Source: Pseudomonadota bacterium | GTDB taxonomy: Bacteria > Pseudomonadota > Gammaproteobacteria > Pseudomonadales > Cellvibrionaceae | Direction of reading: 5' to 3' | Assembly: GCA_040385335.1 (NCBI GenBank) | Contig: JAZKHP010000021.1 | Coordinates: 68,516-132,515 of the forward strand | Length of the DNA stretch: 64,000 nt | Shown here: piece by piece, positions 20,196-36,756 of the stretch | Numbering within the stretch: position 1 is the first letter of the stretch | Layout of the letters: every line of letters begins with the position of its first letter | Notes under the pieces: model-generated | The model's database searches: none | What the model was told of the DNA's origin: nothing | Seen by the model: the letters and a program-made list of their open reading frames with translations, nothing else | Program-made: the position numbers and the translations under genes

Positions 20196-23100
20196 ATGGT
20201 TTTTCCAAGAAATAATCAGAATGAAACACACACACGCATAAAATTTAAAAAATCAATGCTGGCAATGTGCATTATGGCTGTAGGTGCGCCTTCATTTGCA
20301 CAGGCTCCAGCGGCGGCGCCCAGTGAAAATATTGAAGAGATTGTAATTACTGGTCAGCGTGCAAATCTTCAAAGTGCACAAGAAATCAAAAAGAACGCAA
20401 GTACCTTCGTAGACTCCATTTCATCGGAAGACATAGGATCTTTACCTGATCGTAGCGTGCTTGAGGCTATGTCTCGCATCCCTGGTGTATCTATCGAGCG
20501 TTTTGCTGCTGCAAACGACCCGGATCACTTTGGCGTTGAGGGTTCAGGTGCCGTTATCCGCGGTATGAGTGCTACTCGTTCAGAGTTTAATGGTCGTGAT
20601 TCGTTTACGGCAAATTCTGGTCGTGGCTTAAGTTTCCAGGATGTACCACCAGAATTGATGGCTGGTGTGGATGTTTACAAAAATCAATCTGCTGACATGA
20701 TTGAGGGCGGTATTGGTGGTACGGTGAGTTTGCGTACTCGTAAGCCTTTTGATTCGCCAGAAAGGCTCATAGCATTTAACTTGGACTATTCATACGGCGA
20801 TTTGGCAGAAGCCTGGACGCCAACTGTTTCAGGTTTATTTAGTGATCGCTGGGAAACGTCGGCAGGTGAATTTGGGGTGTTGGTTAATGCTTCAAGTTCA
20901 AAATTAGAAGGTTCTTCAAACGGCTTGCAGAGCGATGCTTATGTTCAATATCTTGATGATTACACTGCTTTTCCTCGAAGATTAGACACCTCAAACACTG
21001 CGGCCGCCAACCACGCTGGTCCAAATGATATCAAGGGTGCAGAACGATTTGCAGAAGCTGGCCAAGGTGTCTGGTTGCCAGGCGGTTCCAATGCTTCAAT
21101 GAAAAATGACGAGCGTGATCGTAAAGGTTTCGCTGCTGCCCTTCAGTGGGAAGACACTGATAAGACTTTCTTAAGCACAACGCAATTTATGCGTTCTGAT
21201 GCACGTTTGAGCTGGACAGAAAATACCATTGGTTACCAATCAGGTTATGACAGACGTCGTAGCATACCGCTTCCTGGTACAGAGTATACCTTTGATGATA
21301 AGGGCTTGTTCCAATCAGGTACTATTACAAATGATGCCGGTTTTGGGTCAAACGGTTGGCGTTCTCGTGATAACGAAAGTACTGATGGTATTCGTATTCC
21401 AACCTATGCGGATTGGGCTAATCCCAATTTGCGTGTTTTCGGTAGCCAATATCAAACAGCAACTCGTGTTAAAGACACTCATACTATAATTGACGATTTT
21501 GCTACTAACTTTAAATGGACTCCTAGTGATACCTGGGAGTTCAGCGTTGACTTGCAATATATTAAAGCAAAAACTGATGACGATGACGCCGGCGCCATGT
21601 TGGCGATGAATGCTATTCAAGCCTATGACACTCGTGGTGACCTTCCAGAACTGGAATTCATTGAGCCTTGGCACGGTGTTCGTGACAACAACATGAAGAT
21701 TGATTGCGGCCTTAAGGGCGGGGAAGTTTGCGCGGATTCTCAAGGTCAAGGCTTATTTGGTGCCGCAGGTGCTGGCGTAAAAGTAGGCGACAACAATTTG
21801 CCAGGTTTCTCTGACGATCCTGCAGGTGATAGCAATTACTTCCAGGACAAAAATTCCTATAACTGGCAGTCTGCAATCGACCACTACGAGCGCTCGGAGG
21901 GCGATTCAAAAGCTGCTCGATTTGACGTTGCATACAATATGGATGGTTTATTCACTCAGGTGAAAGCGGGCATTCGCTACGCTGTCCGCGAACAAACTGT
22001 GCGCTCGACGACTTACAACTGGGGTGCGTTGTTTCCAGTATTCGCAACATCTCCAAAAGGTTTAGGTTGGGTAGATACACCTACCGTTGGTGATTTGAAT
22101 GGTGAGTGGGAATATGTCGACTGGAGTAATTTCCAACGCGGCGAATCCATGACTGTACCTGGTGATGGTTTTTTACATCCGAAGGTATCTTTGCTGAAAG
22201 ATGTCATCAACGGTCGTGAACTACCTGCAGCGTCTGAATACCTCGACAATCCATGGGAGAAAATGGAGAACCGAGTCGGTACTGGCGGTAGTTTATTCCT
22301 TCCCTCTGAAGTTTATATTACAGAAGAAAAGAATAAAGCTGCCTATGTTCGTTTTGATTTTGAAACGGATATTGCCGAGCATACAGTGAAAGGTAACATT
22401 GGTTTACGTTACGTAGAGCTCGATCGTGAGGCACAAGGCGCTACTCAATATCCAAATCTTGTTTCTACAACTCCACCACCAGCTGATGCACCTCCGGTAA
22501 CTGATATTGCGGCTTCTGATGCATATGAGCAGGCTAGAAGAGCCGAAATTGAGGCAATATACGATGCTATGCCTGGAAAGGGGCCTTATACCCCGATTAC
22601 TGATCCTAATTACACTCCTACATCGGTAGAGCGCGCTAGGGCTACAGCACGAGAAAAGGCGGTTAATGAGGGCTTCAAGAACGGCACCACACAAGTTGTT
22701 GGTTTGAATTCTGTTATGACTTATAGAAATACTGCATTTAATTTCTTAAATGAAACTGATGCAGGCTTTGGTAATAATGTCGCTGCGTTGCAAGACGAAT
22801 CTAATACCTATGATGCCTTACTGCCAAGTTTTAACCTGGCTATTAATGTTACTGATGAATTGATAGCACGTTTCGCTGCATCTAAAGCAATAGCGCAGCC
22901 TGATATGGAAGACGTGCGATACACCACGAACTTAAGGGTGTTGAATAATGAAGTGATGAAGACAACCCGAATTACCCCAAACCCGCAGCCGTTTTTACAG
23001 CCCAGAACTGCAACAATTGCTGCTGAAGTACCAGGTTGGGCGGGTGACGCAGGTAATCCAAGTCTCGATCCGATGGAATCAACACAAGTTGACGCATCGT

Positions 23101-23789
23101 TGGAATGGTATTTTGCTCAAGCAGGTTCTGTAACATTCACTTTGTTTCAGAAAGATCTTTCCAAGTTCTTCATTAACGGAAGTTTTGAGCGCACCTACAC
23201 TAACCCAGTTAGCAACGTGACACAGACGGCGGAGGTAACGGGAACCATCAATAATGGCGAAGGTAAGTTAAAAGGCTTTGAATTTGCTTATCAACAGTTC
23301 TATGACTTCTTGCCTGCTCCATTTGATGGTCTAGGTTTGCAAGCCAACTTTAGCTATATTGATTCTGAATCGGTACCTAATACTGGTAGTTTAGCGCAGG
23401 ACGATAGCGGCTCAACCGATACGGGCGCTCGTGTAGACCTCGCTGGTTTGCCTCTAAAAGGCCAATCCAAGCGCACCTACAATATCGGGCTTATGTATGA
23501 GAAAAATGATTGGTCTGCGCGCCTTGCTTACAACTGGCGTTCACGCTATTTGTTGACAACTCGCGATGTGATCAGCCGCTTCCCATTATGGAACGATGAT
23601 TATGGTACGGTTGATGCGTCCTTGACATATAAAATCAACGACAACTTCAGCACTGGTATTCAGTTCACTAACCTGACTAACGCTACCACCAAAACCATCA
23701 TGATTCTTGATGGCCAGGATTTGGAAGCGGGCCGTTCATGGTTCGTAAATGACCGTCGTGTATCTCTGCAGTTAAAAGGCAGTTTTTAA
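20196..23789 (+). CDS. TonB-dependent receptor (1197 aa)
   Basis: Signal peptide, TonB-box-like 'IEEIVITG', plug 'DSISSEDIGSLPDRSVLEAMSRIPGV', 'VDVYKNQSADMIEGGIGGTVSLRTRKP', terminal aromatic residue (GSF). Confidence 0.95.
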   Translation: MVFPRNNQNETHTRIKFKKSMLAMCIMAVGAPSFAQAPAAAPSENIEEIVITGQRANLQSAQEIKKNASTFVDSISSEDIGSLPDRSVLEAMSRIPGVSIERFAAANDPDHFGVEGSGAVIRGMSATRSEFNGRDSFTANSGRGLSFQDVPPELMAGVDVYKNQSADMIEGGIGGTVSLRTRKPFDSPERLIAFNLDYSYGDLAEAWTPTVSGLFSDRWETSAGEFGVLVNASSSKLEGSSNGLQSDAYVQYLDDYTAFPRRLDTSNTAAANHAGPNDIKGAERFAEAGQGVWLPGGSNASMKNDERDRKGFAAALQWEDTDKTFLSTTQFMRSDARLSWTENTIGYQSGYDRRRSIPLPGTEYTFDDKGLFQSGTITNDAGFGSNGWRSRDNESTDGIRIPTYADWANPNLRVFGSQYQTATRVKDTHTIIDDFATNFKWTPSDTWEFSVDLQYIKAKTDDDDAGAMLAMNAIQAYDTRGDLPELEFIEPWHGVRDNNMKIDCGLKGGEVCADSQGQGLFGAAGAGVKVGDNNLPGFSDDPAGDSNYFQDKNSYNWQSAIDHYERSEGDSKAARFDVAYNMDGLFTQVKAGIRYAVREQTVRSTTYNWGALFPVFATSPKGLGWVDTPTVGDLNGEWEYVDWSNFQRGESMTVPGDGFLHPKVSLLKDVINGRELPAASEYLDNPWEKMENRVGTGGSLFLPSEVYITEEKNKAAYVRFDFETDIAEHTVKGNIGLRYVELDREAQGATQYPNLVSTTPPPADAPPVTDIAASDAYEQARRAEIEAIYDAMPGKGPYTPITDPNYTPTSVERARATAREKAVNEGFKNGTTQVVGLNSVMTYRNTAFNFLNETDAGFGNNVAALQDESNTYDALLPSFNLAINVTDELIARFAASKAIAQPDMEDVRYTTNLRVLNNEVMKTTRITPNPQPFLQPRTATIAAEVPGWAGDAGNPSLDPMESTQVDASLEWYFAQAGSVTFTLFQKDLSKFFINGSFERTYTNPVSNVTQTAEVTGTINNGEGKLKGFEFAYQQFYDFLPAPFDGLGLQANFSYIDSESVPNTGSLAQDDSGSTDTGARVDLAGLPLKGQSKRTYNIGLMYEKNDWSARLAYNWRSRYLLTTRDVISRFPLWNDDYGTVDASLTYKINDNFSTGIQFTNLTNATTKTIMILDGQDLEAGRSWFVNDRRVSLQLKGSF

Positions 23790-23814: not shown

Positions 23815-23845
23815 AACGCGCTACGTAAGTGGCGCGTTTTTTTTT
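23815..23845 (+). terminator. Intrinsic terminator/attenuator between the TonB receptor and the halogenase-like genes
   Basis: AACGCGCTAC-gtaa-GTGGCGCGTT stem followed by a long T tract. Confidence 0.7.
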
Positions 23846-23927
23846 GTGGTCAGATAATTAATTTCATTACAGTTAACTTTAGTTTCATATATGCTTAAAA
23901 AATAAAATGTAGAGCTAAGTAGAATTT

Positions 23928-25481
23928 ATGCAGCAAAGTAACATGAACAGTAATGTAAAAAAAATAACTATTGTGGGTGGCGGGACTGCAGGATGGATGG
24001 CTGCTGCGGCATTCGTACGCTTTTTTCCTAAAGAGAATTACACCGTTCAACTAATTGAGTCAGATGCAATAGGTACAGTGGGTGTCGGTGAGGCCACCGT
24101 TCCTCATTTACGTTATTTTAATAACATGCTAGGCATCGACGAAAATGAATTTATTGCCGCAACTCAAGCTACTTATAAATTAGGTATTCAATTTGAAAAT
24201 TGGGGAGAGATTGGGGAATCTTATATCCATCCTTTTGGAAGTCACGGTTATGCCATTAACCAAATTGCGTTTCATCATTATTGGATTAAATTGTGGAATG
24301 AGAAAAAAGTCGTTCCATTTGATCAGTTTTCGATGGCAGTCGCTGCAGCTCAACAGGGCAAATTTGCTTATCCGTCAGATGATATCAACTCTCCTCTATC
24401 GACCTACACCTATGCTTTCCATATTAACGCGAGTTCCTACGCGCAATACCTGCGTCAGTATGCGGAGTCGCGTGGGCTGCAGCGCATTGAAGGTAAAATT
24501 AATTCAGTGGTCGTGAATGATAGTGGAAATATTAATCATGTCACTCTTGAGTCTGGCGCAACCATTGACGGTGATTTATTTATAGATTGTTCCGGGTTTA
24601 GAGCTTTATTGATTGAAGATACATTAAAAACGGGCTATGAGAATTGGAGTCAGTGGTTATTGTGTGACAGCGCTGTTGCCATGCCCAGCGAATCACAACC
24701 ACAGATTCCTCTGTATACCAGAGCTATAGCACGCGAATTTGGTTGGCAGTGGCAAATTCCATTGCAACATCGAACAGGTAATGGGTATGTATACTCCAGT
24801 CAGTTTATTACTGATGAGGTTGCCTATGAGACTTTGCAGCAAAATCTTGATGGCAATCCTACCGGCAATCCGAATTTTCTAAAATTTACACCTGGGCGAC
24901 GCTTACAAAGCTGGAATAAAAATTGTGTAGCTATGGGCCTAGCTAGCGGATTTTTGGAGCCATTGGAGTCAACGAGTATTTATTTGATCCAGGTTGCGAT
25001 TTTAAAATTGCTTGAGTTTTTTCCTACAGAGACTGATTCCACGATTAGGCGCAACGAATTTAACCGTCAAATTAAAAGTGAGTATGAAAAAATAAGAGAT
25101 TTTATTATCTTGCATTACCATCTTAATCGGCGGACAGATTCAGAGTTGTGGAAATACTCTGCGCAAATGATCTTGCCTGATAGTTTATTACGAAAGAAAA
25201 ATTTGTTTTATGAATCCAGCCATGTTGAAACTTATCAACATGGATTATTTATGGAGCCTAGTTGGCTTGCTGTATATTTAGGTCAAGCCAAACCCCCTAT
25301 ACATTATGATAAGCGGGCTGACTCGTCTGATTCTAAACTTTCAATGCATCTAAACAAAATAGTATCGGAACTTAATAACATCACAGCCCATATGCCACCA
25401 GCAAGTCTCGCTATGTATAAGCTACAAAAATCGTCATCATATTCTGTGGCAAGTATGAGTTTGTATGGTAGGAATTTATGA
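23928..25481 (+). CDS. Flavin-dependent (tryptophan-halogenase family) halogenase, catalytic motifs intact (copy 1)
   Basis: GGGTAGW, GVGEAT, catalytic Lys in ATYKLGI, WQWQIP, GFLEPLESTSI. Confidence 0.9.
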   Translation: MQQSNMNSNVKKITIVGGGTAGWMAAAAFVRFFPKENYTVQLIESDAIGTVGVGEATVPHLRYFNNMLGIDENEFIAATQATYKLGIQFENWGEIGESYIHPFGSHGYAINQIAFHHYWIKLWNEKKVVPFDQFSMAVAAAQQGKFAYPSDDINSPLSTYTYAFHINASSYAQYLRQYAESRGLQRIEGKINSVVVNDSGNINHVTLESGATIDGDLFIDCSGFRALLIEDTLKTGYENWSQWLLCDSAVAMPSESQPQIPLYTRAIAREFGWQWQIPLQHRTGNGYVYSSQFITDEVAYETLQQNLDGNPTGNPNFLKFTPGRRLQSWNKNCVAMGLASGFLEPLESTSIYLIQVAILKLLEFFPTETDSTIRRNEFNRQIKSEYEKIRDFIILHYHLNRRTDSELWKYSAQMILPDSLLRKKNLFYESSHVETYQHGLFMEPSWLAVYLGQAKPPIHYDKRADSSDSKLSMHLNKIVSELNNITAHMPPASLAMYKLQKSSSYSVASMSLYGRNL

Positions 25482-26926
25482 GCATTCCTATTAGGCATAT
25501 ATTGGTTGCTGGGGGCGGAATTATTGGCTGGTGGGCTGCTGTCTTTTTAAAAAAGGCTATGCCTGATATTAATGTCAGTATTTTGAATAGTCCTGTCGAT
25601 GACAGTTACGCGGTCACTACCGAGCCAATGTTTGCTGAGTATTTGCGTCTTATCGGAATAACAGAACAGCAATTGATTAAATATGCTGATGGTAATTTCT
25701 GTTTTGCTCAGGCGTACTTTAATTGGCCTGCTGAGCGTAATCAATATTTTCACACGGCAGACAAATTGAATTTTAACTGCGACGCAGTAGAATTTAATCA
25801 GTGGCTATTAAAGCTCAAGCAAGCGGGGCATTCGCTTCATTTGGATGATTATTCATTATCGGCTGTCGCTGCTAGGTCAGGCAGGGCTCCGATTTTATCA
25901 TCAAATAAAACATTACCAAGCTTAAGCTTTGACGCTCGTTATTTTAATAAAATACTACAATCCTATGCGCTGGAGCTCGGTGTGACGGTAATAGATGATG
26001 AGATTAAAGACACCGCTGTTGATGCAGAAGGTGAGATTGATTTTATTGTAAGCTCAAAAAATGGCACCTTTAAAAGTGATTTTTATATTGATGCTACCGG
26101 GCAGGGCGACTTAATTGGCAAGGCTATGGGAGTGCACTATGAAAGCTGGGCAGTTTGTCTTCCTTTCCATAAAAAGAAAACATTGGTAGTGCCACCGCAA
26201 GATGGGCGTTTAATTCCATTTACCTCTGTACACTTGTCGGAACAGGGTTGGGTAAAAAGTACACCGCTTAAAAATATAGTCATATGTGAGTATACCTACA
26301 CTGACTCCATTGCTACGGAAAATAAAAAAGATCCAATAAATGATTTTTTTTCAACAGCTACAGCTACTCATTTTCAACCGGGTATGCGCAAAAAAAGCTG
26401 GCATAAAAACTGTTTGGCGTTAGGTTCAGCAGCTGCGATTCTAGATGGCTTTAGTCATTCTTCTTTTTATTTGGCGGCGTCATCCTTAAAACGATTTATA
26501 AATTATTGGCCTCACCACCCACAATATGATGCAATTGAAAATGAATTTAACCGTTTAATGCGTATGGATTATGAAGCTGTGAGGGATTTGCATGCAGTAC
26601 ACTATGCTGCAATTAAAATGCAGGTTAAATTACCTCATTCTTTTTGGTCCCAAGTTGAACTGCCTGAATCATTGCAATATAGGCTAAATCTTTTTATGGA
26701 CTGTGGGCGTGCTTTGCCTGATGAAAATAACCTATTAGACCCAACGCAGTGGCTACATTTATTGATAGGTTTGGGTTGTTGGCCACGGGGTTATGATTGC
26801 ATTGCTAATCATCATGGTAATGATATTTATTGGCAATATTCACAGCAGATAATGAAGAATGTTCAAGGCGTAGCAAAAACATTGCCTGATTACAATTCTT
26901 ATATGAAAACATTTGTTGAACACTAA
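25478..26926 (+). CDS. Halogenase-fold protein with degenerate catalytic motifs (copy 2)
   Basis: Keeps GGGIIGW and is collinear with copy 1, but has GNFCFAQ at the Lys site, WVKSTP for WxWxIP and ILDGFSHS for FLEPLES. ATGA overlap with the copy 1 stop. Confidence 0.8.
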   Translation: MSIPIRHILVAGGGIIGWWAAVFLKKAMPDINVSILNSPVDDSYAVTTEPMFAEYLRLIGITEQQLIKYADGNFCFAQAYFNWPAERNQYFHTADKLNFNCDAVEFNQWLLKLKQAGHSLHLDDYSLSAVAARSGRAPILSSNKTLPSLSFDARYFNKILQSYALELGVTVIDDEIKDTAVDAEGEIDFIVSSKNGTFKSDFYIDATGQGDLIGKAMGVHYESWAVCLPFHKKKTLVVPPQDGRLIPFTSVHLSEQGWVKSTPLKNIVICEYTYTDSIATENKKDPINDFFSTATATHFQPGMRKKSWHKNCLALGSAAAILDGFSHSSFYLAASSLKRFINYWPHHPQYDAIENEFNRLMRMDYEAVRDLHAVHYAAIKMQVKLPHSFWSQVELPESLQYRLNLFMDCGRALPDENNLLDPTQWLHLLIGLGCWPRGYDCIANHHGNDIYWQYSQQIMKNVQGVAKTLPDYNSYMKTFVEH

Positions 26927-26959
26927 AAATTACGGGAAAATATCTTCCTGGAAATATCT

Positions 26960-28462
26960 ATGATTCAAAACCCTATAAAAAAAATAGTTATCGTTGGCGG
27001 TGGAACTGCTGGTTGGATGACTGCTGCAGCTTGTGCTAAAAAATATCCTGCCACAACTATGTCTATTACACTTATCGAGAGTGAATCTATTGGCACTATT
27101 GGCGTAGGCGAATCAACAATTCCACATATCAGGCACTTTAATCAGTTCTTAGGTATTGATGAGAGTGTATTTGTCGCTGAAACCAAAGCCACATTTAAAA
27201 TGGGCATTGCATTTAAAGACTGGGGAAGTCTTGGCAGTGAATATATTCATCCATTCGGACCGCTCGGTCATGATATAAACGGCGTAGAGTTTCATCATTA
27301 CTGGCTGCGCTCGCGTCTCAGTGGAAGCCCTTATCCTATTGATAATTATTCGCTCGCCGCTGTAGCGGCAAGAGCTGGTAAATTTCAGCATCCTTGTGAT
27401 GATCAATCATCGTTGTTATCCACCTATAGTTATGCGTTCCACTTTGATGCTTCGTTATACGCTAAATATTTGCGGAATTATTCTGAAAAAAGACAAGTAT
27501 GTAGAAAGGAAGGCATAGTTTCCGAAACAATTTTAAATCCGCAAACAGGTTTTATTGAATCGATTCGGTTGAATTCTGGTGAGATAATTAATGGCGATTT
27601 GTTTATTGATTGCACCGGTTTTCGTGGCATTCTAATTGAAGATGTTTTGCATTCCGGCTTTGATGATTGGAGCCATTGGTTAGCCTGCGACAAAGCTGTT
27701 GCAGTGCCTTGCGAGCGAAATAGTGAACAGTTAAATCCTTACACCCTATCTATTGCGCACAAAGCAGGGTGGCAATGGCGTATCCCTTTGCAGCATCGGA
27801 CCGGCAACGGTCATGTTTACGCCAGTGATTATATGAGTGATGATGAGGCCACTTCATTGTTACTTAATAATCTTAATGGCGCGCCCCTGGCGGAGCCCAG
27901 GATTCTAAAGTTTAAAGCTGGGCAACGAAAAAAAAACTGGTTAAAAAATTGTGTGGCCATCGGCTTATCAGGTGGATTTCTTGAGCCATTGGAATCAACC
28001 AGCATTTATTTAATTCAAGTCGGCATACAAAAGCTACTGGAGTTTTTTCCTGACTTGCATTTTTTTGAAGAAAACATAAAAGAGTTTAATGATCAATTGG
28101 ATGCAGAATATGTTCGCATCCGCGATTTTATTATTATGCACTATAAGCAATCCTCCAGAGATGACTCTGAGTTTTGGATGAGATGCAAGAATATGATTGT
28201 GCCGGAGGCTTTAGCAAATCGGCAAAAAATATTCGCAGCCTGCGGCCATGTGGATCATCAACAATATGGCGTATATGCGGCAGTTTGTATTGGGCAGGGA
28301 CTTATACCAAAGTCTTACGATTTCAAAATAAATGCATTGCCAATGGATGCTATTGAAAAATACATGGAAAAAATACGCCTTGAAATAGAATTGGCAACGC
28401 AGTCAATGACTAATGCAGAAATGTATATCAAGAAAATTATTGGTAATGGTGGTAGTGCTTGA
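26960..28462 (+). CDS. Flavin-dependent halogenase, motifs intact (copy 3)
   Basis: GGGTAGW, GVGEST, ATFKMGI, WQWRIP, GFLEPLESTSI. Confidence 0.9.
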   Translation: MIQNPIKKIVIVGGGTAGWMTAAACAKKYPATTMSITLIESESIGTIGVGESTIPHIRHFNQFLGIDESVFVAETKATFKMGIAFKDWGSLGSEYIHPFGPLGHDINGVEFHHYWLRSRLSGSPYPIDNYSLAAVAARAGKFQHPCDDQSSLLSTYSYAFHFDASLYAKYLRNYSEKRQVCRKEGIVSETILNPQTGFIESIRLNSGEIINGDLFIDCTGFRGILIEDVLHSGFDDWSHWLACDKAVAVPCERNSEQLNPYTLSIAHKAGWQWRIPLQHRTGNGHVYASDYMSDDEATSLLLNNLNGAPLAEPRILKFKAGQRKKNWLKNCVAIGLSGGFLEPLESTSIYLIQVGIQKLLEFFPDLHFFEENIKEFNDQLDAEYVRIRDFIIMHYKQSSRDDSEFWMRCKNMIVPEALANRQKIFAACGHVDHQQYGVYAAVCIGQGLIPKSYDFKINALPMDAIEKYMEKIRLEIELATQSMTNAEMYIKKIIGNGGSA

Positions 28463-29931
28463 ATCCAAAAAAAATAATCATCGTAGGTGGAGGTATAGAA
28501 GGGTGGACGGTTGCGTCCCTTTTGGGCCGGCACTTGCCGCCAACAGTAGCGGAAGTTTTTGTTATAGAACATCCTGTGCCCAATGTTATTATTGCTGAGT
28601 CTGCGGGCTCTAGTATCAATAGCTTTCATCAGCTTCTTGGCATTAAGGAGAAGACATTATTAGCTGCATCCAATACAACTTATCGCATGGGGATTCGCTA
28701 TGACGGTTGGTCTTCGTCTTCGCAGCGGTATGTGCTTTCCGAAGGGCGTTATGGGGATACTTTTCGCGGAATAGATTTTCATCAACTTTATGCAAAAAGT
28801 TTGCAACTGGGGGTAAGAAATTCGTTTGATGAATATTCGATTAATTCTGTTTCGGTCAAGCTCAATCGATGCGCCAGCCCGGTGTCGAATCAGCAGTCTA
28901 TTTATTCTTGTCTAGTGCATGGACTTAATTTACAAGCTGATTCTTATGCGAAAGTTTTAAAAGAAAATGCAATAGATGCTAGCGTTACAACCATTAAGGG
29001 GGCTGTTAACAGAGTCGGCCTGGATTCTGAAACGGGTCATATTTCAGTTGTTCACTTGGATAATGGAGAAGCTATTGCTGCAGATTTTTTTATTGATTGT
29101 AGCGGCAAGGAAGGTGTGTTAATCGCCGGAGGGCTTAGCGTTTCCTTAATTAGCCAGGATTGCGTATTTAACCGCGTAGCCGTCGGTAGCAGTACGTCAG
29201 AAGAGATAGGAAGCCCGGCAGCAAATTTAAGTATGCACAACGATGGATTTTTAAAACAAGTTTTATTAAAAGATAAAAGTATCTGTAGCTATAATTTTTC
29301 CAGTCTTAATTTGAATGATGAGGGGGCGAAGCAGTATCTGAATAAGCTGGGTATTATTGATATTAGCTTTCAGGATAAGCATTGTGAAAGAAGGTCCAGC
29401 TTCTGGCATAAAAACTGTGTAGCGATTGGTTCGGCAGCAGCTAGTCACTACGATATTTATTATTCACCATTACAATCTGTTAGAAACTCTGCGGTTCGCC
29501 TATTGGATTTATTGATGGGGTTTGATGACTTTGAGTCAGTTAGTTCGGAGTATAATCGGCAATCGTTTGTAGAGTATGATGGCATTGAAGAGTTAAATCA
29601 GTTGCATCTATATTTCGCAAGATCGCAGTCAGCTATTTTGCGTGAGTATTTTGAATCACATTACTTAACCGAATATGCATTGCATAGACTGAACCTGTTT
29701 TCGTTAACCGGAAAACTCACCTATTCCAATGAAGATATTCTTACGAAGTCTGAGTGGATAGCCTTTTTTATGGGGAATAACGTCTTCCCCGAAACCTATA
29801 ATAACGATGTTGATTTTGTAGAGAACAGCAACCTTCTTAAGTTTATTGAAAAAATCAGAGTGGAAATATATAAAGCCGCAGAAAAAGTGCCCCGGCATGT
29901 GGACTTTATTGCCAATGTTTTGAATGGTTAA
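28459..29931 (+). CDS. Halogenase-fold protein with degenerate catalytic motifs (copy 4)
   Basis: GGGIEGW kept; TTYRMGI (Lys to Arg); FLKQVL for WxWxIP; HYDIYYSP for FLEPLES. TTG start overlaps the copy 3 stop (TTGA). Confidence 0.8.
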   Translation: MNPKKIIIVGGGIEGWTVASLLGRHLPPTVAEVFVIEHPVPNVIIAESAGSSINSFHQLLGIKEKTLLAASNTTYRMGIRYDGWSSSSQRYVLSEGRYGDTFRGIDFHQLYAKSLQLGVRNSFDEYSINSVSVKLNRCASPVSNQQSIYSCLVHGLNLQADSYAKVLKENAIDASVTTIKGAVNRVGLDSETGHISVVHLDNGEAIAADFFIDCSGKEGVLIAGGLSVSLISQDCVFNRVAVGSSTSEEIGSPAANLSMHNDGFLKQVLLKDKSICSYNFSSLNLNDEGAKQYLNKLGIIDISFQDKHCERRSSFWHKNCVAIGSAAASHYDIYYSPLQSVRNSAVRLLDLLMGFDDFESVSSEYNRQSFVEYDGIEELNQLHLYFARSQSAILREYFESHYLTEYALHRLNLFSLTGKLTYSNEDILTKSEWIAFFMGNNVFPETYNNDVDFVENSNLLKFIEKIRVEIYKAAEKVPRHVDFIANVLNG

Positions 29932-29945
29932 TCAGGTAAAAAAAA

Positions 29946-31460
29946 ATGACTGAAGATAAATGTATAAAAAATGTTGTTATTGTTGGTGGCGGGACTTCCG
30001 GGTGGATGGTTGCTGCAGCCATGGCAAAGATAATAAAGAATAATTATTGCAATATTCGGTTAATTGAATCGGAAGAGATTGGTACAGTGGGGGTTGGTGA
30101 AGCCACCATTCCAATAATTCAATTTTTTAATAAATTATTGGATTTAGATGAAGATGAATTTGTGCGCAAGACACAAGGTACCTTTAAGCTGGGTATACAG
30201 TTTGTCAACTGGAAAAAAATTGGCCATAGATATATTCATGCTTTTGGCGATGTTGGTAAAGATATTGACTCTATACAGTTTTATCATTATTGGTTAAAGA
30301 TGTCGCAATTAGGCCAAGCAGAAGAGTTAGAGCAATACTCTATAAGCGGCGTAGCCTCTGATAAAGCAAAGTTTATGCGTCCTTTTGATGCAGGTAATTC
30401 ACCGCTATCCAACATCACTTATGCCTTTCATTTTGATGCAGGATTATATGCAAAATTTTTGCGTGAGTATTCAGAGGAGCGCGGAATTATCAGAACAGAA
30501 GGCAAAGTTGTTAATACCCAATTAAATATTAATAATGGTTTTATTGACGCGGTTGTTCTCGAAAGTGGTGAGCGAATTGAAGGCGATTTATTTATTGACT
30601 GCTCGGGCTTTAGAGGGTTACTTATTGAGCAAGCACTGCACACTGGATATGAAGACTGGACGCATTGGTTACCATGTGATCGAGCCTTGGCGGTGCCTTG
30701 TGAGAGTGCGAGTGTTCTCACGCCTTATACCAGGTCAACTGCTCACAGCGCTGGCTGGCAGTGGAGAATCCCATTGCAAAATCGTATCGGCAATGGTCAC
30801 GTGTTTTGTAGCAAGTATATGAGCGATGATGAAGCTGCATCTATTCTTTTGAAAAACCTGGATGGCGCCCCTCTGGCCGAGCCGCGGTTGCTAAAATTTA
30901 CCACAGGTAAGCGTAAACAATTCTGGAATAAGAATTGTGTTGCGATCGGTCTAGCAAGTGGTTTTATGGAGCCTCTGGAATCAACAAGCATTCACTTAGT
31001 ACAATCAAGCATTGCGCGACTATTAAACTTTTTTCCGAATAAAAATTTTGATCAAGAGGATATTGATGAGTTTAATCGTCAGTCACATTTCGAAGTGGAT
31101 AAAATTCGGGATTTTCTTATTTTGCATTATAAAGTTACAGAGCGTGATGACTCGGAATTTTGGCGCTATTGTAAAAGTATGTCCATTCCCGATGCGCTTA
31201 CGCAAAAAATAGAACAGTTTAAGAAAAACGGGAGAATTTTCCGAAATAGTAACGAAATGTTTAGTGAGTTAAGTTGGCTTGAGGTAATGCATGGTCAAGG
31301 TCTTCGGCCCCGTGCTTATCATCCGTTGGTTGATATTATGCCTAAAGATGAAATTGCAAAGCGCTTAATGGGAGTTAAGAGTGTAATAGATAAGTCAGTA
31401 GACTATATGCCATCACACGCTCAATTCATTGCCGAACATTGCGCAGCCAAAAAAATGTAA
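29946..31460 (+). CDS. Flavin-dependent halogenase, motifs intact (copy 5)
   Basis: GGGTSGW, GVGEAT, GTFKLGI, WQWRIP, GFMEPLESTSI. Confidence 0.9.
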   Translation: MTEDKCIKNVVIVGGGTSGWMVAAAMAKIIKNNYCNIRLIESEEIGTVGVGEATIPIIQFFNKLLDLDEDEFVRKTQGTFKLGIQFVNWKKIGHRYIHAFGDVGKDIDSIQFYHYWLKMSQLGQAEELEQYSISGVASDKAKFMRPFDAGNSPLSNITYAFHFDAGLYAKFLREYSEERGIIRTEGKVVNTQLNINNGFIDAVVLESGERIEGDLFIDCSGFRGLLIEQALHTGYEDWTHWLPCDRALAVPCESASVLTPYTRSTAHSAGWQWRIPLQNRIGNGHVFCSKYMSDDEAASILLKNLDGAPLAEPRLLKFTTGKRKQFWNKNCVAIGLASGFMEPLESTSIHLVQSSIARLLNFFPNKNFDQEDIDEFNRQSHFEVDKIRDFLILHYKVTERDDSEFWRYCKSMSIPDALTQKIEQFKKNGRIFRNSNEMFSELSWLEVMHGQGLRPRAYHPLVDIMPKDEIAKRLMGVKSVIDKSVDYMPSHAQFIAEHCAAKKM

Positions 31461-31461
31461 G

Positions 31462-32112
31462 TCATTTTTCTGCACAGCTTGCATCACCCTCTTGAAGTTT
31501 TTCTAAATGAATACTGGTGATGGACAGTTTCATTTTCCCTTCGGTGGAAATGGTTATTGGGCCATTGATTTTTTTCAGATCGAGGCCTGCTTTGGTTAAG
31601 CAGTTGAGGGGGATGGGTAATGACTGCCATTTATCTTTTTCAAGTTTTTTGAGCGGTTTACCCATACTGACCAAGCCTTCGCATGGGTAGGTGCAGCCCA
31701 TGCCAATACTGACTTCTTTGTTAGGGCTTATTTCTACTTTCATATCGATTACGAGTGCAGCAGTGTTTTCAGCTGTGCTCAAATCTATATCCGCACCATA
31801 AATTGCAAACGTGCCTTTTTCGTCGCTACGTGAAGCCCAGGTTATTGTTATCGCATCGTTTTTGGTTTTGAAATCGCTGGGCTCAACAGCCACTTTGCCG
31901 GAGGCAGATTTACCCTTGCGGTCGATAACAGGGGTTGACCAATTTGCGGGGTCGCCCAGACTCAAGGACCATCCATCAACAATTTTACCCTCATGAATAT
32001 AATAAAACTTAGAGTTTAGCTTTGGCTTATCTGCAGTCTGTGCTGATATTGTATTAACGCAAAGTAGAAGGGTTCCAAGCATTAAGGCTTTGAAGGACAG
32101 AAAAGATAACAT
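31462..32112 (-). CDS. Secreted galactose-binding-like protein resembling the C-terminal domain of GH3 exo-glucanases (ExoP_C-like)
   Basis: Signal peptide; 'GMGCTYPCEG...KWQSLPIPLNCLTKAGLDLKKINGPITIST.G' pattern recalled from ExoP-type C-terminal domains; no catalytic domain. Confidence 0.6.
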   Translation of the reverse strand: MLSFLSFKALMLGTLLLCVNTISAQTADKPKLNSKFYYIHEGKIVDGWSLSLGDPANWSTPVIDRKGKSASGKVAVEPSDFKTKNDAITITWASRSDEKGTFAIYGADIDLSTAENTAALVIDMKVEISPNKEVSIGMGCTYPCEGLVSMGKPLKKLEKDKWQSLPIPLNCLTKAGLDLKKINGPITISTEGKMKLSITSIHLEKLQEGDASCAEK

Positions 32113-32371: not shown

Positions 32372-33106
32372 TTATATCTCAAACGAAAAACCACTTTCAC
32401 TTAATTTTTTGTAAATCTCCGGATCAAAGTGATAGAGGTTTGCAGCGCGGTGCGGTACGCCTTGTTGTTTTTCATCGCAAGATGTTAATAAATTCATTTT
32501 CATTATTTTGCGACGAAAGTTGGGCTTGTCTAGCTTTGTATTAAGAATTGCTTCGTAAAGCGCTTGTAGTTGTAATAGGGTAAATTTCTCTGGTAGTAAA
32601 TTAAACCCTATAGGTTGATGCCGGATCTGATGACGCAAAAACTTAAGCCCGTAGGCAATAATGTCAGCGTGATCGTACACCAGGGCAGGTAATTCGTTAG
32701 CGTTAAACCAGCTTACATCGGCAGCAGTTTGGCCGGCGACTAACAAGTAGTTTTCAGCACTGACTAACGCATAATAGGCAACAGTCACAACCCGATCGTT
32801 GGGAAATCGATTTACTCGCCCAAACGTTTTAAGTTGCTCGAGATAGAGTTGCTTAACACCTGTTAAATCTTCTAGCAGGCGATAAGCTGCATCACGCAAA
32901 TTTTCATCGTAACGAATCCACCCGCCGGGTAATGCCCATTTTCCTTCGTGCATTGGATCGGTTTGGCGGACAAGTAAAATCTTCAATTGGTTTTGATCAA
33001 GACCAAAGATCAGGTTGTCGATAGATAGCGCTTTTATTAAATCTTGTGATAAGTCGAGACGTTTTTCTTGAAGGTAAGTCGTTGGGATGTTGGTGGACAC
33101 AATCAA
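32372..33106 (-). CDS. NrtR-family regulator (Nudix domain plus winged HTH), probably controlling xylose genes
   Basis: 'WALPGGWIRYDENLRDAAYRLLEDLTG' (Nudix box lacking the usual REE), 'EKFTLLQLQALYE', 'LDKPNFRRKI', 'HRAANLYHF'. Divergent from xylB. Confidence 0.88.
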   Translation of the reverse strand: MIVSTNIPTTYLQEKRLDLSQDLIKALSIDNLIFGLDQNQLKILLVRQTDPMHEGKWALPGGWIRYDENLRDAAYRLLEDLTGVKQLYLEQLKTFGRVNRFPNDRVVTVAYYALVSAENYLLVAGQTAADVSWFNANELPALVYDHADIIAYGLKFLRHQIRHQPIGFNLLPEKFTLLQLQALYEAILNTKLDKPNFRRKIMKMNLLTSCDEKQQGVPHRAANLYHFDPEIYKKLSESGFSFEI

Positions 33107-33240: not shown

Positions 33241-33316
33241 TTGTAGCGCTGACCTCTAGGTGTCTACAATGATCGCTTTACTTTCTAAATAATAATGTTA
33301 ATGTTAACGTTAACTT
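33241..33316. promoter_or_regulatory. Candidate operators in the regulator-xylB divergent region
   Basis: TTGTAGCGCTGACC (33241-33254) and the perfect palindrome GTTAACGTTAAC (33303-33314). TTAATGTTAAC occurs at 33298 and again upstream of xylA at 35175. Confidence 0.45.
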
Positions 33317-33585
33317 TTCAGAAAGGCAACACCATATCTACTAAATCCGGCTTGTTTTTAAAAAACCGCGATGTAAATCTAATTTGAGCTTTTTGTAGCG
33401 AGGCGATTGGAGGCATTGTTAAATAAGGATTTCAAGATAATGTGAAGAAACGGCAGTAAATTTACATTGCCTTTACAAGAAAGCGTCTTGTAGTCAAGTG
33501 GACAATAAGATATGATGATAATTCCAGATAATTTTTTTCTGCGTGTTAGTTGATTTTTGATCGCAATAAACAGTTGAGGCTTGTT

Positions 33586-35082
33586 ATGTTATTTTTGGGT
33601 ATAGATGTTGGCAGTTCGTCCGTCAAACTCACGGTGCTTGATGGTGATTCAGGTAAATGTCTGGCTGCTATTTCCTATCCAGAAACTGAGCTGGCTATTG
33701 AAAGTCCATTAGCCGGTTTTGCAGAGCAAGATCCTGAGGTATGGTGGGATTGCATTAAACAGGGTGCTGCCAAGTTATTTTCGTCTGGCAAGTTTGATTC
33801 CAAGCGTATTGAAGCTATCGGCATTTCTTATCAAATGCATGGTTTGGTATTAGTAGATGATGCCCAGCAAGTGCTGCGACCCGCTATTATTTGGTGTGAT
33901 AGTAGAGCGGTGTCGTTAGGAGATGCTGCTTTAACTGAATTAGGGCACGAATATTGTTTCAAGCATTTATTAAACTCGCCAGGCAATTTTACTGCTGCTA
34001 AATTGCGCTGGGTGCAAAAAAATCAACCAGAGATTTTTAGTCGTATTCACAAAATGATGTTGCCTGGCGACTATATTGCGATGAAATTAAGCGGCGAAAT
34101 TACAACTACCGCTGCAGGTTTATCCGAGGGTATTTTGTGGGATTTTAAAGAGCAACACGTTGCTACCAGGCTTTTGGATCATTGGGAAATTGATTCTTCG
34201 CTAATACCTAGGATCGTTCCTGGTTTTGGTGTGCAAGGTAGTGTGAGCCAAAAAGTTGCGGCTGAGTTAGGTTTGCGTGCAGGAGTAAAGATTTGTTACC
34301 GTGCTGGTGATCAACCTAATAACGCATTTAGTTTAAATGTATTGTCCCCCGGAGAAGTTGCAGCTACAGCGGGCACTTCAGGGGTTATTTACGGTGTAAC
34401 AGATAAGCCAGCCGCTGATGTGGATTCTCGTGTAAATACATTTTTACATGTTACCAGTACACCTGAAAAAAATCGTAACGGTGTGCTCCTTTGTGTTAAT
34501 GGTTGTGGGCGCCTGTATTCCTGGTTGCGCCAAACATTGAGCGCAACAGGCGCAACACCGACTTATCCCTTATTAAATAGTTTTGCAGAAAATATTCCGA
34601 TCGGTAGCGAAGGTTTAATATTTCATCCTTTTGGCAATGGTACTGAGCGAATTTTTAAAAATAAAAATCTTGGTGCAGGGTTGCGCAATCTGGATTTTAA
34701 TCGACACAACCTTGGTCATATAGTACGGTCAGCGCAGGAAGGTATTGTGTTTTCGCTCAACCAGGGTTTCGATGTTTTGAAGTCGATGGGGGGGAGTTGT
34801 GATGTTGTGCGTGCAGGTAAAAGTAATATGTTTTTAAGTGATGTATTTACTCAAGCTTTTGCAAATACTACGCAAGCGGTTGTTGAATTATTTGCAACTG
34901 ATGGTGCCGAAGGTGCTGCGCGAGGGGCGGCCTTGGGATACGGCTTTTATACATCACCCGCCGAGGCATTTGCTGGCTTGACGCGTTTAGGTGTGGTTGA
35001 GCCGCGGCAAGAATTATATGCGCAATATGCCGATGCCTATCAAGCATGGGTAGCGCTATTGCCAACTGAGCTCGATATCTAG
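33586..35082 (+). CDS. xylB: Xylulokinase (FGGY family)
   Basis: 'LGIDVGSSSVK', 'AEQDPEVWW', 'SYQMHGLV', 'IIWCDSRA', 'AGTSGV'; directly upstream of xylose isomerase. Confidence 0.88.
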   Translation: MLFLGIDVGSSSVKLTVLDGDSGKCLAAISYPETELAIESPLAGFAEQDPEVWWDCIKQGAAKLFSSGKFDSKRIEAIGISYQMHGLVLVDDAQQVLRPAIIWCDSRAVSLGDAALTELGHEYCFKHLLNSPGNFTAAKLRWVQKNQPEIFSRIHKMMLPGDYIAMKLSGEITTTAAGLSEGILWDFKEQHVATRLLDHWEIDSSLIPRIVPGFGVQGSVSQKVAAELGLRAGVKICYRAGDQPNNAFSLNVLSPGEVAATAGTSGVIYGVTDKPAADVDSRVNTFLHVTSTPEKNRNGVLLCVNGCGRLYSWLRQTLSATGATPTYPLLNSFAENIPIGSEGLIFHPFGNGTERIFKNKNLGAGLRNLDFNRHNLGHIVRSAQEGIVFSLNQGFDVLKSMGGSCDVVRAGKSNMFLSDVFTQAFANTTQAVVELFATDGAEGAARGAALGYGFYTSPAEAFAGLTRLGVVEPRQELYAQYADAYQAWVALLPTELDI

Positions 35083-35203
35083 CATAGAAAAAATGAATCT
35101 AATAAAAATAAGTAACTGAAGAAGGCCTGAAAATTGGATTTTATTCGACGCTAAAAGCGCCGCAATATTTAAAATTAATGTTAACAATTACGAGGTAAGT
35201 AAT

Positions 35204-36535: not shown

Positions 36536-36546
36536 TTGCTACAATA

Positions 36547-36590
36547 TTTAACTATCCCAACCTCACATTTGCGAGGTTGGGATAGTTAAA
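36547..36590. terminator. Long hairpin after xylA (terminator or mRNA-stabilising stem)
   Basis: Perfect 18-bp inverted repeat TTTAACTATCCCAACCTC / GAGGTTGGGATAGTTAAA. Confidence 0.7.
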
Positions 36591-36756
36591 CTAAGCTAAA
36601 TGGAGTTGCTGCAGGCAAGTAATAGAAAAAATTATACCTCGATACACCCTCCAGTCTATAAGCATGTAACTATTTTATCCCTTGCATTTGCACAGATCAA
36701 AGTACAGAAATTGTATTGAATAAATTTAATAATTTTTATTCTTCAAGGCGCAATTT

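What the first reader, a model, noticed from the sequence alone, without database searches (positions are those of the whole stretch)
23928..31460. Five halogenase-like genes alternating active / pseudo / active / pseudo / active, with each pseudo-enzyme coupled to the preceding active one
Seen: copies 1, 3 and 5 keep the catalytic Lys (YK/FK), WxWxIP and F(L/M)EPLES. Copies 2 and 4 keep the GxGxxG fold motif and full length (482 and 490 aa) but lose all three (Lys to Cys and Arg). Copies 2 and 4 each start inside the upstream stop (ATGA, TTGA), whereas 2-3 and 4-5 are separated by 33 and 14 bp. Established: the PrnA/RebH Lys and Glu are needed for halogenation; 4-nt overlaps often mark translational coupling of partner subunits. 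Inference: obligate enzyme/pseudo-enzyme heterodimers (1+2, 3+4) plus a free copy 5, with the pseudo-subunits setting specificity, scaffolding or handling flavin. No flavin reductase gene is adjacent.
Basis: partly seen in the sequence, partly recalled or inferred. Interest (0 to 1): 0.75.

Follow-up and report, generated by a model that had tools for sequence, protein, structure and literature searches.

The report
Halogenase array with two dead partners
Five halogenase-type genes sit behind a sugar-uptake receptor in a xylan-degrading locus; two are ancient, conserved, catalytically dead copies, each tightly coupled to the working copy before it, which suggests that these long-puzzling "orphan" halogenases work as enzyme/dead-partner complexes.

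Summary
Five full-length PF04820 genes follow a TonB-dependent receptor. Copies 1, 3 and 5 keep every catalytic motif. Copies 2 and 4 lose the Lys, the Glu, WxWxIP and the FAD loop, and each starts 4 nt inside the preceding stop codon.

This is not a natural-product cluster. It is the known but unexplained receptor-linked "orphan" halogenase module (BrvH/Xcc4156 type), here in a Cellvibrio-like xylan/xylose locus.

The dead copies are not decaying:
- The array receptor-A-d-A-d-A (A active, d dead) recurs in at least 11 other genomes or metagenome contigs.
- dN/dS is 0.17-0.25.
- The copy 2 model keeps the full halogenase fold (pLDDT 92, TM 0.91 to Xcc4156).
- Dead copies form a large, old, nearly monophyletic lineage that has mostly lost its flavin motifs.

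An active gene abuts or overlaps the following dead gene at 25 of 26 junctions, in seven of eight dead-copy lineages. Distance matrices pair copy 2 with copy 1 and copy 4 with copy 3. Natural dead-active fusion proteins exist, but there the dead half is fused to the downstream active gene.

A physical complex, the exact pairing and the substrate remain untested. I rate this a new variant of a known kind; interest about 0.6.

The parts
20196..23789 (+). TonB-dependent receptor, 1197 aa, of the oligosaccharide type (TonB-Xanth-Caul subfamily); first gene of the conserved module
   Evidence: Pfam Plug plus TonB_dep_Rec_b-barrel. NCBIfam TIGR01782 scores 632 bits against a cut-off of 310. An ortholog precedes the array in every related locus whose contig reaches that far.
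23815..23848 (+). Terminator-like hairpin (10-bp stem, GTAA loop) followed by a T-run, between the receptor gene and halogenase gene 1
   Evidence: An equivalent hairpin plus T-run is present in 8 of 9 related loci, with stem changes on both sides that keep the pairing.
23928..25481 (+). Copy 1: intact BrvH/Xcc4156-type flavin-dependent halogenase with a C-terminal tail ...MSLYGRNL; its stop codon overlaps the start of copy 2
   Evidence: It forms an ortholog clade with L069_A1 and P0183, which also lie upstream of dead copies. Tail.
25478..26926 (+). Copy 2: catalytically dead halogenase paralog (Lys to Cys; no Glu, no WxWxIP, no FAD loop; GxGxxG kept); ATGA overlap with copy 1
   Evidence: dN/dS 0.22-0.25. 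AlphaFold2 pLDDT 92 and pTM 0.91. TM 0.91 to 6y1w. Its family has family-specific conserved motifs.
26960..28462 (+). Copy 3: intact halogenase; its stop codon overlaps the start of copy 4. It lies in the same reading frame as copy 2, separated only by a TAA stop and 33 nt
28459..29931 (+). Copy 4: catalytically dead halogenase paralog (Lys to Arg; no Glu, no WxWxIP, no FAD loop); TTG start inside the TGA stop of copy 3
   Evidence: dN/dS 0.17. Orthologs lie at the same position in all related arrays. It falls in a different dead subclade from copy 2.
29946..31460 (+). Copy 5: intact halogenase of the 'terminal' type and the most conserved of the five (dN/dS 0.04-0.05)
   Evidence: It forms a clade with the last halogenase gene of the arrays L069, L070, L072 and L073. 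Nearest solved structures: 9luq 543 bits, 6y1w 542, 6frl 506.
31462..32112 (-). Convergent gene for a secreted 216-aa protein that consists only of an Exop_C galactose-binding-like domain; conserved neighbour of the array
   Evidence: Pfam PF18559. Signal-peptide-like N-terminus. The same gene follows the array in relatives.
32372..33106 (-). Nudix/NrtR-family winged-helix regulator (context: pentose regulon)
   Evidence: The same kind of regulator sits beside the receptor in the independent trio locus L069.
33550..39213 (+). xylB (xylulokinase), xylA (xylose isomerase) and a GH3 beta-xylosidase-like gene: the xylose/xylo-oligosaccharide catabolic context
   Evidence: In relatives GH43, GH115, GH10 and ManD-like genes take this place.

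Best explanation
This is a conserved accessory module of a xylan/xylose utilisation locus in a Cellvibrio-like gammaproteobacterium. An oligosaccharide-type TonB-dependent receptor is followed, across a terminator-like hairpin, by five cytoplasmic paralogs of the BrvH/Xcc4156 'group C' flavin-dependent halogenases.

Three of them (copies 1, 3 and 5) are intact enzymes. They should use reduced FAD, oxygen and halide to make a Lys-bound hypohalite.

Copies 2 and 4 belong to an old, diversified lineage of pseudo-halogenases. These keep the whole fold but have lost catalysis and, in most members, flavin binding. Each is made in step with the active gene before it, through overlapping stop and start codons.

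The dead copies most likely act as non-catalytic partner subunits, taking the place of the second protomer of the usual halogenase dimer. That gives pairs 1+2 and 3+4, with copy 5 as a separate terminal enzyme.

Shown here: the motif states, conservation, purifying selection, the tight gene junctions, the retained fold, the correlated distance matrices and the existence of natural dead-active fusions. Inferred: the physical complex, which copy binds which, and what the partner contributes (substrate recognition, activation or stability). The substrate and the link to glycan uptake remain unknown.
For: - Motifs and overlaps.
- Locus context: the receptor is TIGR01782; xylB, xylA and GH3 lie in the window; GH43, GH115, GH10 and ManD-like genes flank the same module in relatives.
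- The array A-d-A-d-A recurs: ten further loci carry all five genes in order (L035-L038, L040, L067, L068 and the P0017 contig) or the part their contig holds (L039, P0173 contig). The receptor precedes the array wherever the contig reaches that far.
- dN/dS, window against its 83%-identical relative: 0.09-0.11, 0.22-0.25, 0.13, 0.17 and 0.04-0.05 for copies 1 to 5.
- Active-to-dead junctions: 19 overlap by 4 nt, 4 overlap by 1 nt, 2 have gaps of 1-2 nt and 1 has a gap of 14 nt, out of 26. This holds in seven of eight dead-copy lineages. Dead-to-active junctions are mostly gaps of 9-44 nt.
- Dead copies are nearly one clade: the trees need 2 changes, against 22-28 in shuffles.
- Flavin motifs in the dead lineage: the FAD loop is kept in 1 of 88 representatives and GxGxxG in 42 of 88.
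- The copy 2 model has pLDDT 92 and TM 0.91 to Xcc4156.
- Distance-matrix correlation: copy 2 with copy 1 r = 0.94, against 0.82 with copy 3 and 0.58 with copy 5. Copy 4 with copy 3 r = 0.91, against 0.84 with copy 1 and 0.68 with copy 5. The order is the same in all 8 leave-one-out runs.
- Natural dead-active fusion proteins: 8 clusters of 984-989 aa, plus P0203.
- Trp-halogenase-type crystal dimers, also seen for Xcc4156, are documented in PMC7336383.
Against:
- In the natural fusions the dead half is joined to the downstream active half, not the upstream one. The partner assignment is therefore open.
- The fusion model gave only pTM 0.67, so a confident interface was not obtained.
- Four-nt overlaps also occur between two active copies (L045, L071, L073). 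Overlap alone does not prove a complex.
- The distance-matrix result rests on 8 related taxa.
- Copies 2 and 4 keep GxGxxG, so some nucleotide binding or a new activity cannot be excluded.
Confidence: 0.5

Rival explanations
1. The dead copies are partner subunits, but the partner differs from what the first reader proposed. Each dead copy binds the downstream active copy (2+3, 4+5), or all five form one larger hetero-oligomer. In that case the upstream overlap serves only to set stoichiometry.
For: Two independent fusion lineages join the dead domain to the downstream active domain, while the upstream active gene merely overlaps the fusion gene by 1 or 4 nt (L072, L073). In the window, copies 2 and 3 are in frame and separated by a single TAA. 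Some relatives have dead-to-active junctions of -1 or +2 nt.
Against: Distance matrices correlate better with the upstream gene in all leave-one-out runs. The dead-to-active spacers are usually 9-44 nt, whereas the active-to-dead junctions are nearly always overlaps. The fused active halves belong to a different active clade from copies 1, 3 and 5.
Confidence: 0.2
2. The dead copies are free-standing proteins with a new function on the halogenase scaffold. They could be a ligand-binding or sensor protein, or an enzyme with a different chemistry. On this view they do not form a stable complex with the active copies.
For: Each dead family has its own strongly conserved motifs where the catalytic ones used to be, for example aDGn...aqayf.W and D.FsHS in the copy 2 family. 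The fold, including the substrate 'pyramid', is retained. GxGxxG is kept in the window's two copies.
Against: A dead copy directly followed an active one in every context examined. Fusions to active domains exist. The flavin motifs are eroded unevenly across the lineage, which argues against a shared redox chemistry.
Confidence: 0.17
3. The receptor plus halogenases make and re-import a halogenated siderophore-like secondary metabolite. This was proposed in 2010 for the TonB receptor / halogenase / SapC / JmjC neighbourhoods.
For: Iyer et al. 2010 (PMC2938197) describe this neighbourhood and make this prediction. The active copies keep all residues needed for halogenation.
Against: No peptide-synthetase, polyketide, SapC or JmjC gene lies in or beside this array. 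The receptor belongs to the oligosaccharide-type TIGR01782 subfamily. The module always sits among xylan-degrading genes in relatives.
Confidence: 0.08
4. Copies 2 and 4 are decaying duplicates with no function.
For: They have lost every catalytic motif, and their amino-acid distances between relatives are 2.4 to 5.4 times those of the active copies.
Against: dN/dS is 0.17-0.25. The frames are intact and full-length in all relatives, down to 31-38% identity and with saturated synonymous sites. About 16% of positions are at least 90% conserved within each dead family. The model is confident.
Confidence: 0.02

Closest known systems
BrvH (PDB 6frl), Xcc4156 (PDB 6y1w) and the Pseudoalteromonas sp. 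L11 halogenase (PDB 9luq): 'group C' flavin-dependent halogenases
   Same: Copies 1, 3 and 5 are close sequence relatives (506-543 bits for copy 5) and have all the catalytic motifs. The dead copies hit the same three structures best, by sequence and, for copy 2, by fold (TM 0.89-0.91). The native substrate of these enzymes is unknown. They brominate indole derivatives but not tryptophan, and Xcc4156 is hard to load with FAD (PMC7336383 and PMC8269204).
   Different: The studied enzymes were characterised alone. No dead partner has been reported for them in the papers I could search. Here two of the five paralogs are catalytically dead and coupled to active ones.
Conserved TonB receptor / tryptophan halogenase (1-3 copies) / SapC / JmjC gene neighbourhood of alpha- and gammaproteobacteria (Iyer, Aravind and co-workers 2010, PMC2938197)
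   Same: A TonB-dependent receptor sits directly beside tandem halogenase paralogs. Other halogenase loci of this same genome do carry SapC next to the halogenase gene.
   Different: This array has five halogenase genes, no SapC and no JmjC or cupin gene. It lies in a xylan/xylose locus. The 2010 paper treated the halogenases as intact and did not mention dead copies.
Enzyme/dead-paralog heteromers, such as the ketosynthase/chain-length-factor pairs of type II polyketide synthases and trypanosome AdoMetDC/prozyme (PMC5201418)
   Same: A catalytically dead paralog is encoded next to the active one, kept under selection, and sometimes fused to it.
   Different: For halogenases no such complex has been shown. 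The resemblance is one of gene logic only.

Membership tests
Flavin-dependent halogenase (Pfam PF04820, PrnA/RebH type) | Full-length match to the family profile, and the two-part 'box plus pyramid' fold | tested here: met
   All five copies match positions 1-2 to 455-457 of the 458-position profile. The copy 2 model has TM 0.91 and rmsd 2.5 A to 6y1w.
Flavin-dependent halogenase (Pfam PF04820, PrnA/RebH type) | GxGxxG dinucleotide-binding motif and the FAD loop GxGE(A/S)T | tested here: met
   Copies 1, 3 and 5 have both. Copies 2 and 4 keep GxGxxG but have lost the FAD loop, so for those two the feature is only half met.
Flavin-dependent halogenase (Pfam PF04820, PrnA/RebH type) | Catalytic Lys, catalytic Glu (EPLES) and WxWxIP | tested here: met
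   Met by copies 1, 3 and 5. Not met by copies 2 and 4 (Cys or Arg for Lys; no Glu; GWVKSTPL and GFLKQVLL in place of WxWxIP). Copies 2 and 4 are therefore family members by descent and fold, not by catalytic equipment.
Flavin-dependent halogenase (Pfam PF04820, PrnA/RebH type) | Halogenating activity with reduced FAD, oxygen and halide | not testable with these tools
   Needs enzyme assays.
'Group C' indole-type halogenases (BrvH, Xcc4156) | Closest sequence and structure relatives are BrvH, Xcc4156 and 9luq rather than the tryptophan halogenases | tested here: met
   506-543 bits against about 316 bits for PrnA. The same ranking holds for the dead copies.
'Group C' indole-type halogenases (BrvH, Xcc4156) | Absence of the tryptophan-binding 'Trp4' motif; preference for bromide; indole but not tryptophan as substrate | not tested
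   These features are described in PMC8269204. I did not align that motif, and activity cannot be tested here.
TonB receptor / halogenase / SapC / JmjC neighbourhood (Iyer et al. 2010) | TonB-dependent receptor adjacent to tandem halogenase genes | tested here: met
   The receptor lies at 20196-23789, 138 nt upstream of copy 1.
TonB receptor / halogenase / SapC / JmjC neighbourhood (Iyer et al. 2010) | SapC gene and/or JmjC/cupin hydroxylase gene in the same cluster | tested here: not met
   Neither is among the flanking genes. The genome's five SapC matches lie elsewhere, for example at C21:193447-194115 beside another halogenase gene.
Enzyme/pseudo-enzyme heteromer | Dead paralog conserved under purifying selection next to an active paralog | tested here: met
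   dN/dS 0.17-0.25. The same arrangement is found in at least 11 further loci.
Enzyme/pseudo-enzyme heteromer | Co-production (translational coupling) and covalent fusions in some lineages | tested here: met
   25 of 26 active-to-dead junctions overlap or abut within 2 nt. Fusion families are P0013/P0191-P0197 and P0203. Coupling is inferred from gene spacing and was not measured.
Enzyme/pseudo-enzyme heteromer | Stable physical complex in which the dead subunit changes activity, stability or specificity | tested here: inconclusive
   Only indirect tests were possible. Distance-matrix correlation favours 1+2 and 3+4. The model of a natural fusion gave pTM 0.67, with both halves folded and the linker disordered. 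No multimer prediction or experiment was available.

The most novel reading that the evidence does not exclude
The receptor-linked 'orphan' halogenases of aquatic and plant-associated proteobacteria (BrvH/Xcc4156 type) would be, in the cell, obligate hetero-oligomers with a dedicated family of pseudo-halogenase subunits that no longer bind flavin. The dead subunit would supply substrate recognition or switch the active subunit on. This would explain why the enzymes studied alone are sluggish, hard to load with FAD and have no known substrate. The window would then encode two such specialised pairs plus a terminal enzyme, acting in sequence on one still unknown aromatic compound linked to glycan uptake.
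Probability: 0.3. Interest if true: 0.8.

Novelty: new variant of a known kind. Interest (0 to 1): 0.6.

Why it matters
Halogenase genes beside sugar-uptake receptors are very common in marine, freshwater and plant-associated bacteria. They were first noted in 2010, and three crystal structures exist. Even so, their substrate and their purpose remain unknown, and the purified enzymes work poorly.

A conserved, selected, dead partner that is co-produced with a specific active copy, and is sometimes fused to an active domain, gives a concrete and cheap experiment: co-express the pairs. That could unlock the real activity of this whole enzyme group. It would also add halogenases to the list of enzyme families that use pseudo-enzyme subunits.

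This window is a good test case because it carries two distinct pairs and an unpaired copy in one operon.

Tried and rejected
- Natural-product cluster reading: rejected. No biosynthetic genes were found, and the array sits among sugar-catabolic genes.
- Shared regulator site: I looked for an operator common to the receptor promoter and the xylAB promoters. A palindrome, GTTAACGTTAAC, lies at 33303-33314, with a related site upstream of xylA. No convincing copy lies upstream of the receptor, so co-regulation with xylAB is not shown.
- Structural test of a dead-active pair: copies 2 and 3 can be read through as one 994-aa chain. MAFFT would not build a usable block alignment for it, so I dropped it. 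I modelled a natural fusion instead, and the result was inconclusive.
- A class-wide genome search scored only three candidates per genome and was uninformative.
- A profile search of the indexed protein collection returned mostly active copies.
- Literature searches for a described dead halogenase partner found none in the library available. Many subscription papers are not covered.

Full report
**1. What is in the window**

Five same-strand ORFs occupy 23928-31460. All five match the tryptophan-halogenase profile PF04820 from end to end. Copies 1, 3 and 5 score 582-670 bits. Copies 2 and 4 score only 229 and 241 bits.

- Copies 1, 3 and 5 keep GGGT(A/S)GW, the FAD loop GVGE(A/S)TxP, the Lys in T(Y/F)K(L/M)G, GWQWxIPL and GF(L/M)EPLEST.
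- Copy 2 has Cys for the Lys and copy 4 has Arg.
- Both dead copies lack the Glu, WxWxIP and the FAD loop, and both keep GxGxxG.

The ATGA and TTGA overlaps and the 33-nt and 14-nt spacers are as stated. None of the five has a signal peptide; the Rossmann strand begins within the first 10-15 residues.

**2. Context**

The gene just upstream (20196-23789) is a 1197-aa TonB-dependent receptor of the TIGR01782 'TonB-Xanth-Caul' subfamily, the type associated with oligosaccharide uptake. A strong terminator-like hairpin with a T-run lies between it and copy 1. An equivalent hairpin, with stem changes that keep the pairing, occurs in 8 of 9 related loci. The halogenase genes are therefore probably expressed at a lower level than the receptor, or from their own promoter.

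Downstream lie:
- a secreted protein made only of an Exop_C domain;
- a Nudix/NrtR-type regulator;
- xylulokinase, xylose isomerase and a GH3 beta-xylosidase-like enzyme.

In relatives the same module is flanked by GH43, GH115, GH10 and a ManD-like dehydratase, which is a glucuronoxylan set. Record titles of relatives name Cellvibrio and Cellvibrionaceae. This is a sugar-utilisation locus, not a biosynthetic cluster.

The genome holds about 13 halogenase-family genes. Only copies 2 and 4 are dead. SapC genes accompany other halogenase loci in this genome but not this one.

**3. Conservation**

Orthologs of both dead copies occur together in 5 of the 37 genomes of the genus, counting the window's own, and in no other family sampled. 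Public genomes and metagenomes added more.

In every case the order is clpB, (DUF4124), receptor, active, dead, active, dead, active, Exop_C. On a tree, each of the five positions forms its own ortholog clade.

Against the closest relative, where synonymous sites are not saturated, dN/dS is:

| Gene | dN/dS |
|---|---|
| Copy 1 | 0.09-0.11 |
| Copy 2 | 0.22-0.25 |
| Copy 3 | 0.13 |
| Copy 4 | 0.17 |
| Copy 5 | 0.04-0.05 |
| Receptor | 0.14-0.15 |

The dead copies diverge faster. Mean protein distance is 0.90 and 1.14, against 0.21-0.37 for the active copies. They nevertheless stay open and full-length down to 31-38% identity. About 16% of positions are at least 90% conserved within each dead family, including new family-specific motifs at the former active site. 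They are not pseudogenes.

**4. The junction rule**

I collected 26 junctions where an active gene is followed by a dead one.
- 19 overlap by 4 nt.
- 4 overlap by 1 nt.
- 2 have gaps of 1-2 nt.
- 1 has a gap of 14 nt.

The junctions come from eight separate dead-copy lineages, of which seven show the tight junction: the copy 2 type, the copy 4 type, L069, L070, L071, L072 and L073. L060 is the exception. In contrast, dead-to-active junctions are mostly gaps of 9-44 nt.

Many of these junctions are orthologous, so the independent count is about eight. Overlaps also occur between some pairs of active genes (L045, L071, L073). The rule is therefore strong but not exclusive.

**5. The dead copies are an old family**

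I built a profile from the ten dead orthologs and searched 1.84 billion cluster representatives. It found 6342 family members at E <= 0.001. Of the 148 best single-domain hits, 88 lack the Lys or the Glu. Among those 88:
- 1 keeps the FAD loop;
- 42 keep GxGxxG;
- 4 keep WxWxIP.

On trees the dead sequences form nearly one group. Two changes of state are needed, against 22-28 in shuffles. Copies 2 and 4 fall in different dead subclades, so they are not a recent tandem duplicate of each other.

Among the active genes:
- copy 5 groups with the last gene of other arrays (L069, L070, L072, L073);
- copy 1 groups with genes that precede dead copies elsewhere (L069_A1, P0183).

The simpler unit active-dead-active occurs in another xylan locus with the same kind of regulator (L069). 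The window looks like that trio with the active-dead pair present twice.

**6. Fold**

AlphaFold2 on copy 2, with 60 aligned sequences, gave pLDDT 92 and pTM 0.91. The best structural matches are 9luq, Xcc4156 (TM 0.91, rmsd 2.5 A) and BrvH. The whole halogenase fold is kept.

**7. Evidence on partnership**

(a) Natural fusions. A family of 984-989-aa proteins joins a strongly degenerate halogenase domain to an intact one. It comprises 8 clusters at 69-80% identity, from several sources. A second, unrelated fusion (P0203) does the same. In their loci an active gene overlaps the fusion gene by 1 or 4 nt, and another active gene follows. Dead and active domains are therefore sometimes one polypeptide, but the fused active half is the downstream one. 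Active-active fusions also exist (P0199, P0201, P0202).

(b) Correlated evolution across eight complete arrays.

| Dead copy | r with copy 1 | r with copy 3 | r with copy 5 |
|---|---|---|---|
| Copy 2 | 0.94 | 0.82 | 0.58 |
| Copy 4 | 0.84 | 0.91 | 0.68 |

The ranking holds in all eight leave-one-out runs. Copy 2 lies between copies 1 and 3, so simple linkage does not explain its preference for copy 1. This favours 1+2 and 3+4, but it rests on few, related taxa.

(c) A model of a natural fusion folded both halves, with a disordered linker. Its pTM was only 0.67, which is inconclusive.

Trp-halogenase-type crystal dimers, also seen for Xcc4156, give a ready-made interface for a heterodimer (PMC7336383).

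**8. Comparison with what is known**

The active copies belong with BrvH, Xcc4156 and 9luq. The native substrates of these 'group C' halogenases are unknown. They brominate indoles but not tryptophan, and Xcc4156 resisted FAD loading (PMC7336383 and PMC8269204).

The receptor-halogenase neighbourhood was described in 2010 and predicted to make a halogenated siderophore (PMC2938197). The carbohydrate context here argues against that prediction.

I found no paper that describes dead halogenase partners, within a library that lacks many subscription journals. Earlier notes of this scan report similar active-plus-dead modules in other genomes. I treated them as leads and tested the coupling, selection and phylogeny independently here.

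**9. Verdict**

The dead copies are functional, ancient and specifically coupled to the preceding active genes. A heteromer is the most economical explanation (about 0.5 for pairs 1+2 and 3+4, and about 0.7 for some kind of dead-active complex).

Three points remain unsettled or unlikely.
- Binding is untested.
- The fusions point to a possible downstream partner.
- A flavin-handling role is unlikely.

The chemistry and the biological purpose of the module remain unknown.

Noticed in passing
window 25440-25481; also L035-L038, L040, L067-L070: The active copy that precedes a dead copy of the copy 2, L069 or L070 type carries a conserved extra C-terminal tail, (M/L)SLYG(G/R)xx, just before the overlapping stop codon. 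In L069 it reads FNFYGRVR. Copy 3, copy 5 and the upstream active genes of L071, L072 and L060 lack it. It might be a contact element for the dead partner.
   Followed up: partly
window 26924-26962: Copies 2 and 3 are in the same reading frame, separated by one TAA and 11 sense codons. Read-through would give a 994-aa dead-active fusion of the kind that exists naturally elsewhere. Three of the five relatives checked also keep the two genes in frame, but with two stop codons between them.
   Followed up: partly
window 23815-23848 and the equivalent sites in L035, L036, L038, L040, L067-L069: A conserved terminator-like hairpin lies directly after the TonB receptor gene, with stem changes on both sides that keep the pairing. 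It probably sets a high receptor-to-halogenase expression ratio.
   Followed up: partly
window 33297-33314 and 35174-35186: The palindrome GTTAACGTTAAC lies between the Nudix/NrtR-type regulator gene and xylB, with a related site, ATTAATGTTAACA, upstream of xylA. This is a candidate operator of the pentose regulator. No clear copy lies upstream of the receptor gene.
   Followed up: partly
window 31462-32112 (-): A free-standing, signal-peptide-bearing protein made only of an Exop_C (galactose-binding-like) domain is a fixed convergent neighbour of the halogenase array in most relatives. It may be a periplasmic or surface glycan-binding protein of the uptake system.
   Followed up: partly
proteins P0223, P0241, P0258, P0244, P0261-P0307: Other single-chain fusions of an intact halogenase exist. 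One type is fused to a Cupin_8 (JmjC-like) domain (838-886 aa). Another is fused to DUF6445, PF20043 (about 745 aa), in Roseateles and Pelomonas. These link the halogenases physically to the hydroxylases noted in 2010.
   Followed up: no
L039 (= G010:C131) 1440-2971: The ortholog of copy 3 in this metagenome-assembled genome is split into two overlapping ORFs. This is either a frameshift or an assembly error. The two dead copies and copy 5 beside it are intact.
   Followed up: no
own genome C21:193447-195905, C13:37178-40436, C67:42-4347: Other halogenase loci of the same genome pair an intact halogenase with a SapC gene, which is the classical 2010 neighbourhood. Two of these halogenases are of a distinct GVGEGTWP / GWxWDIGL subtype.
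   Followed up: no
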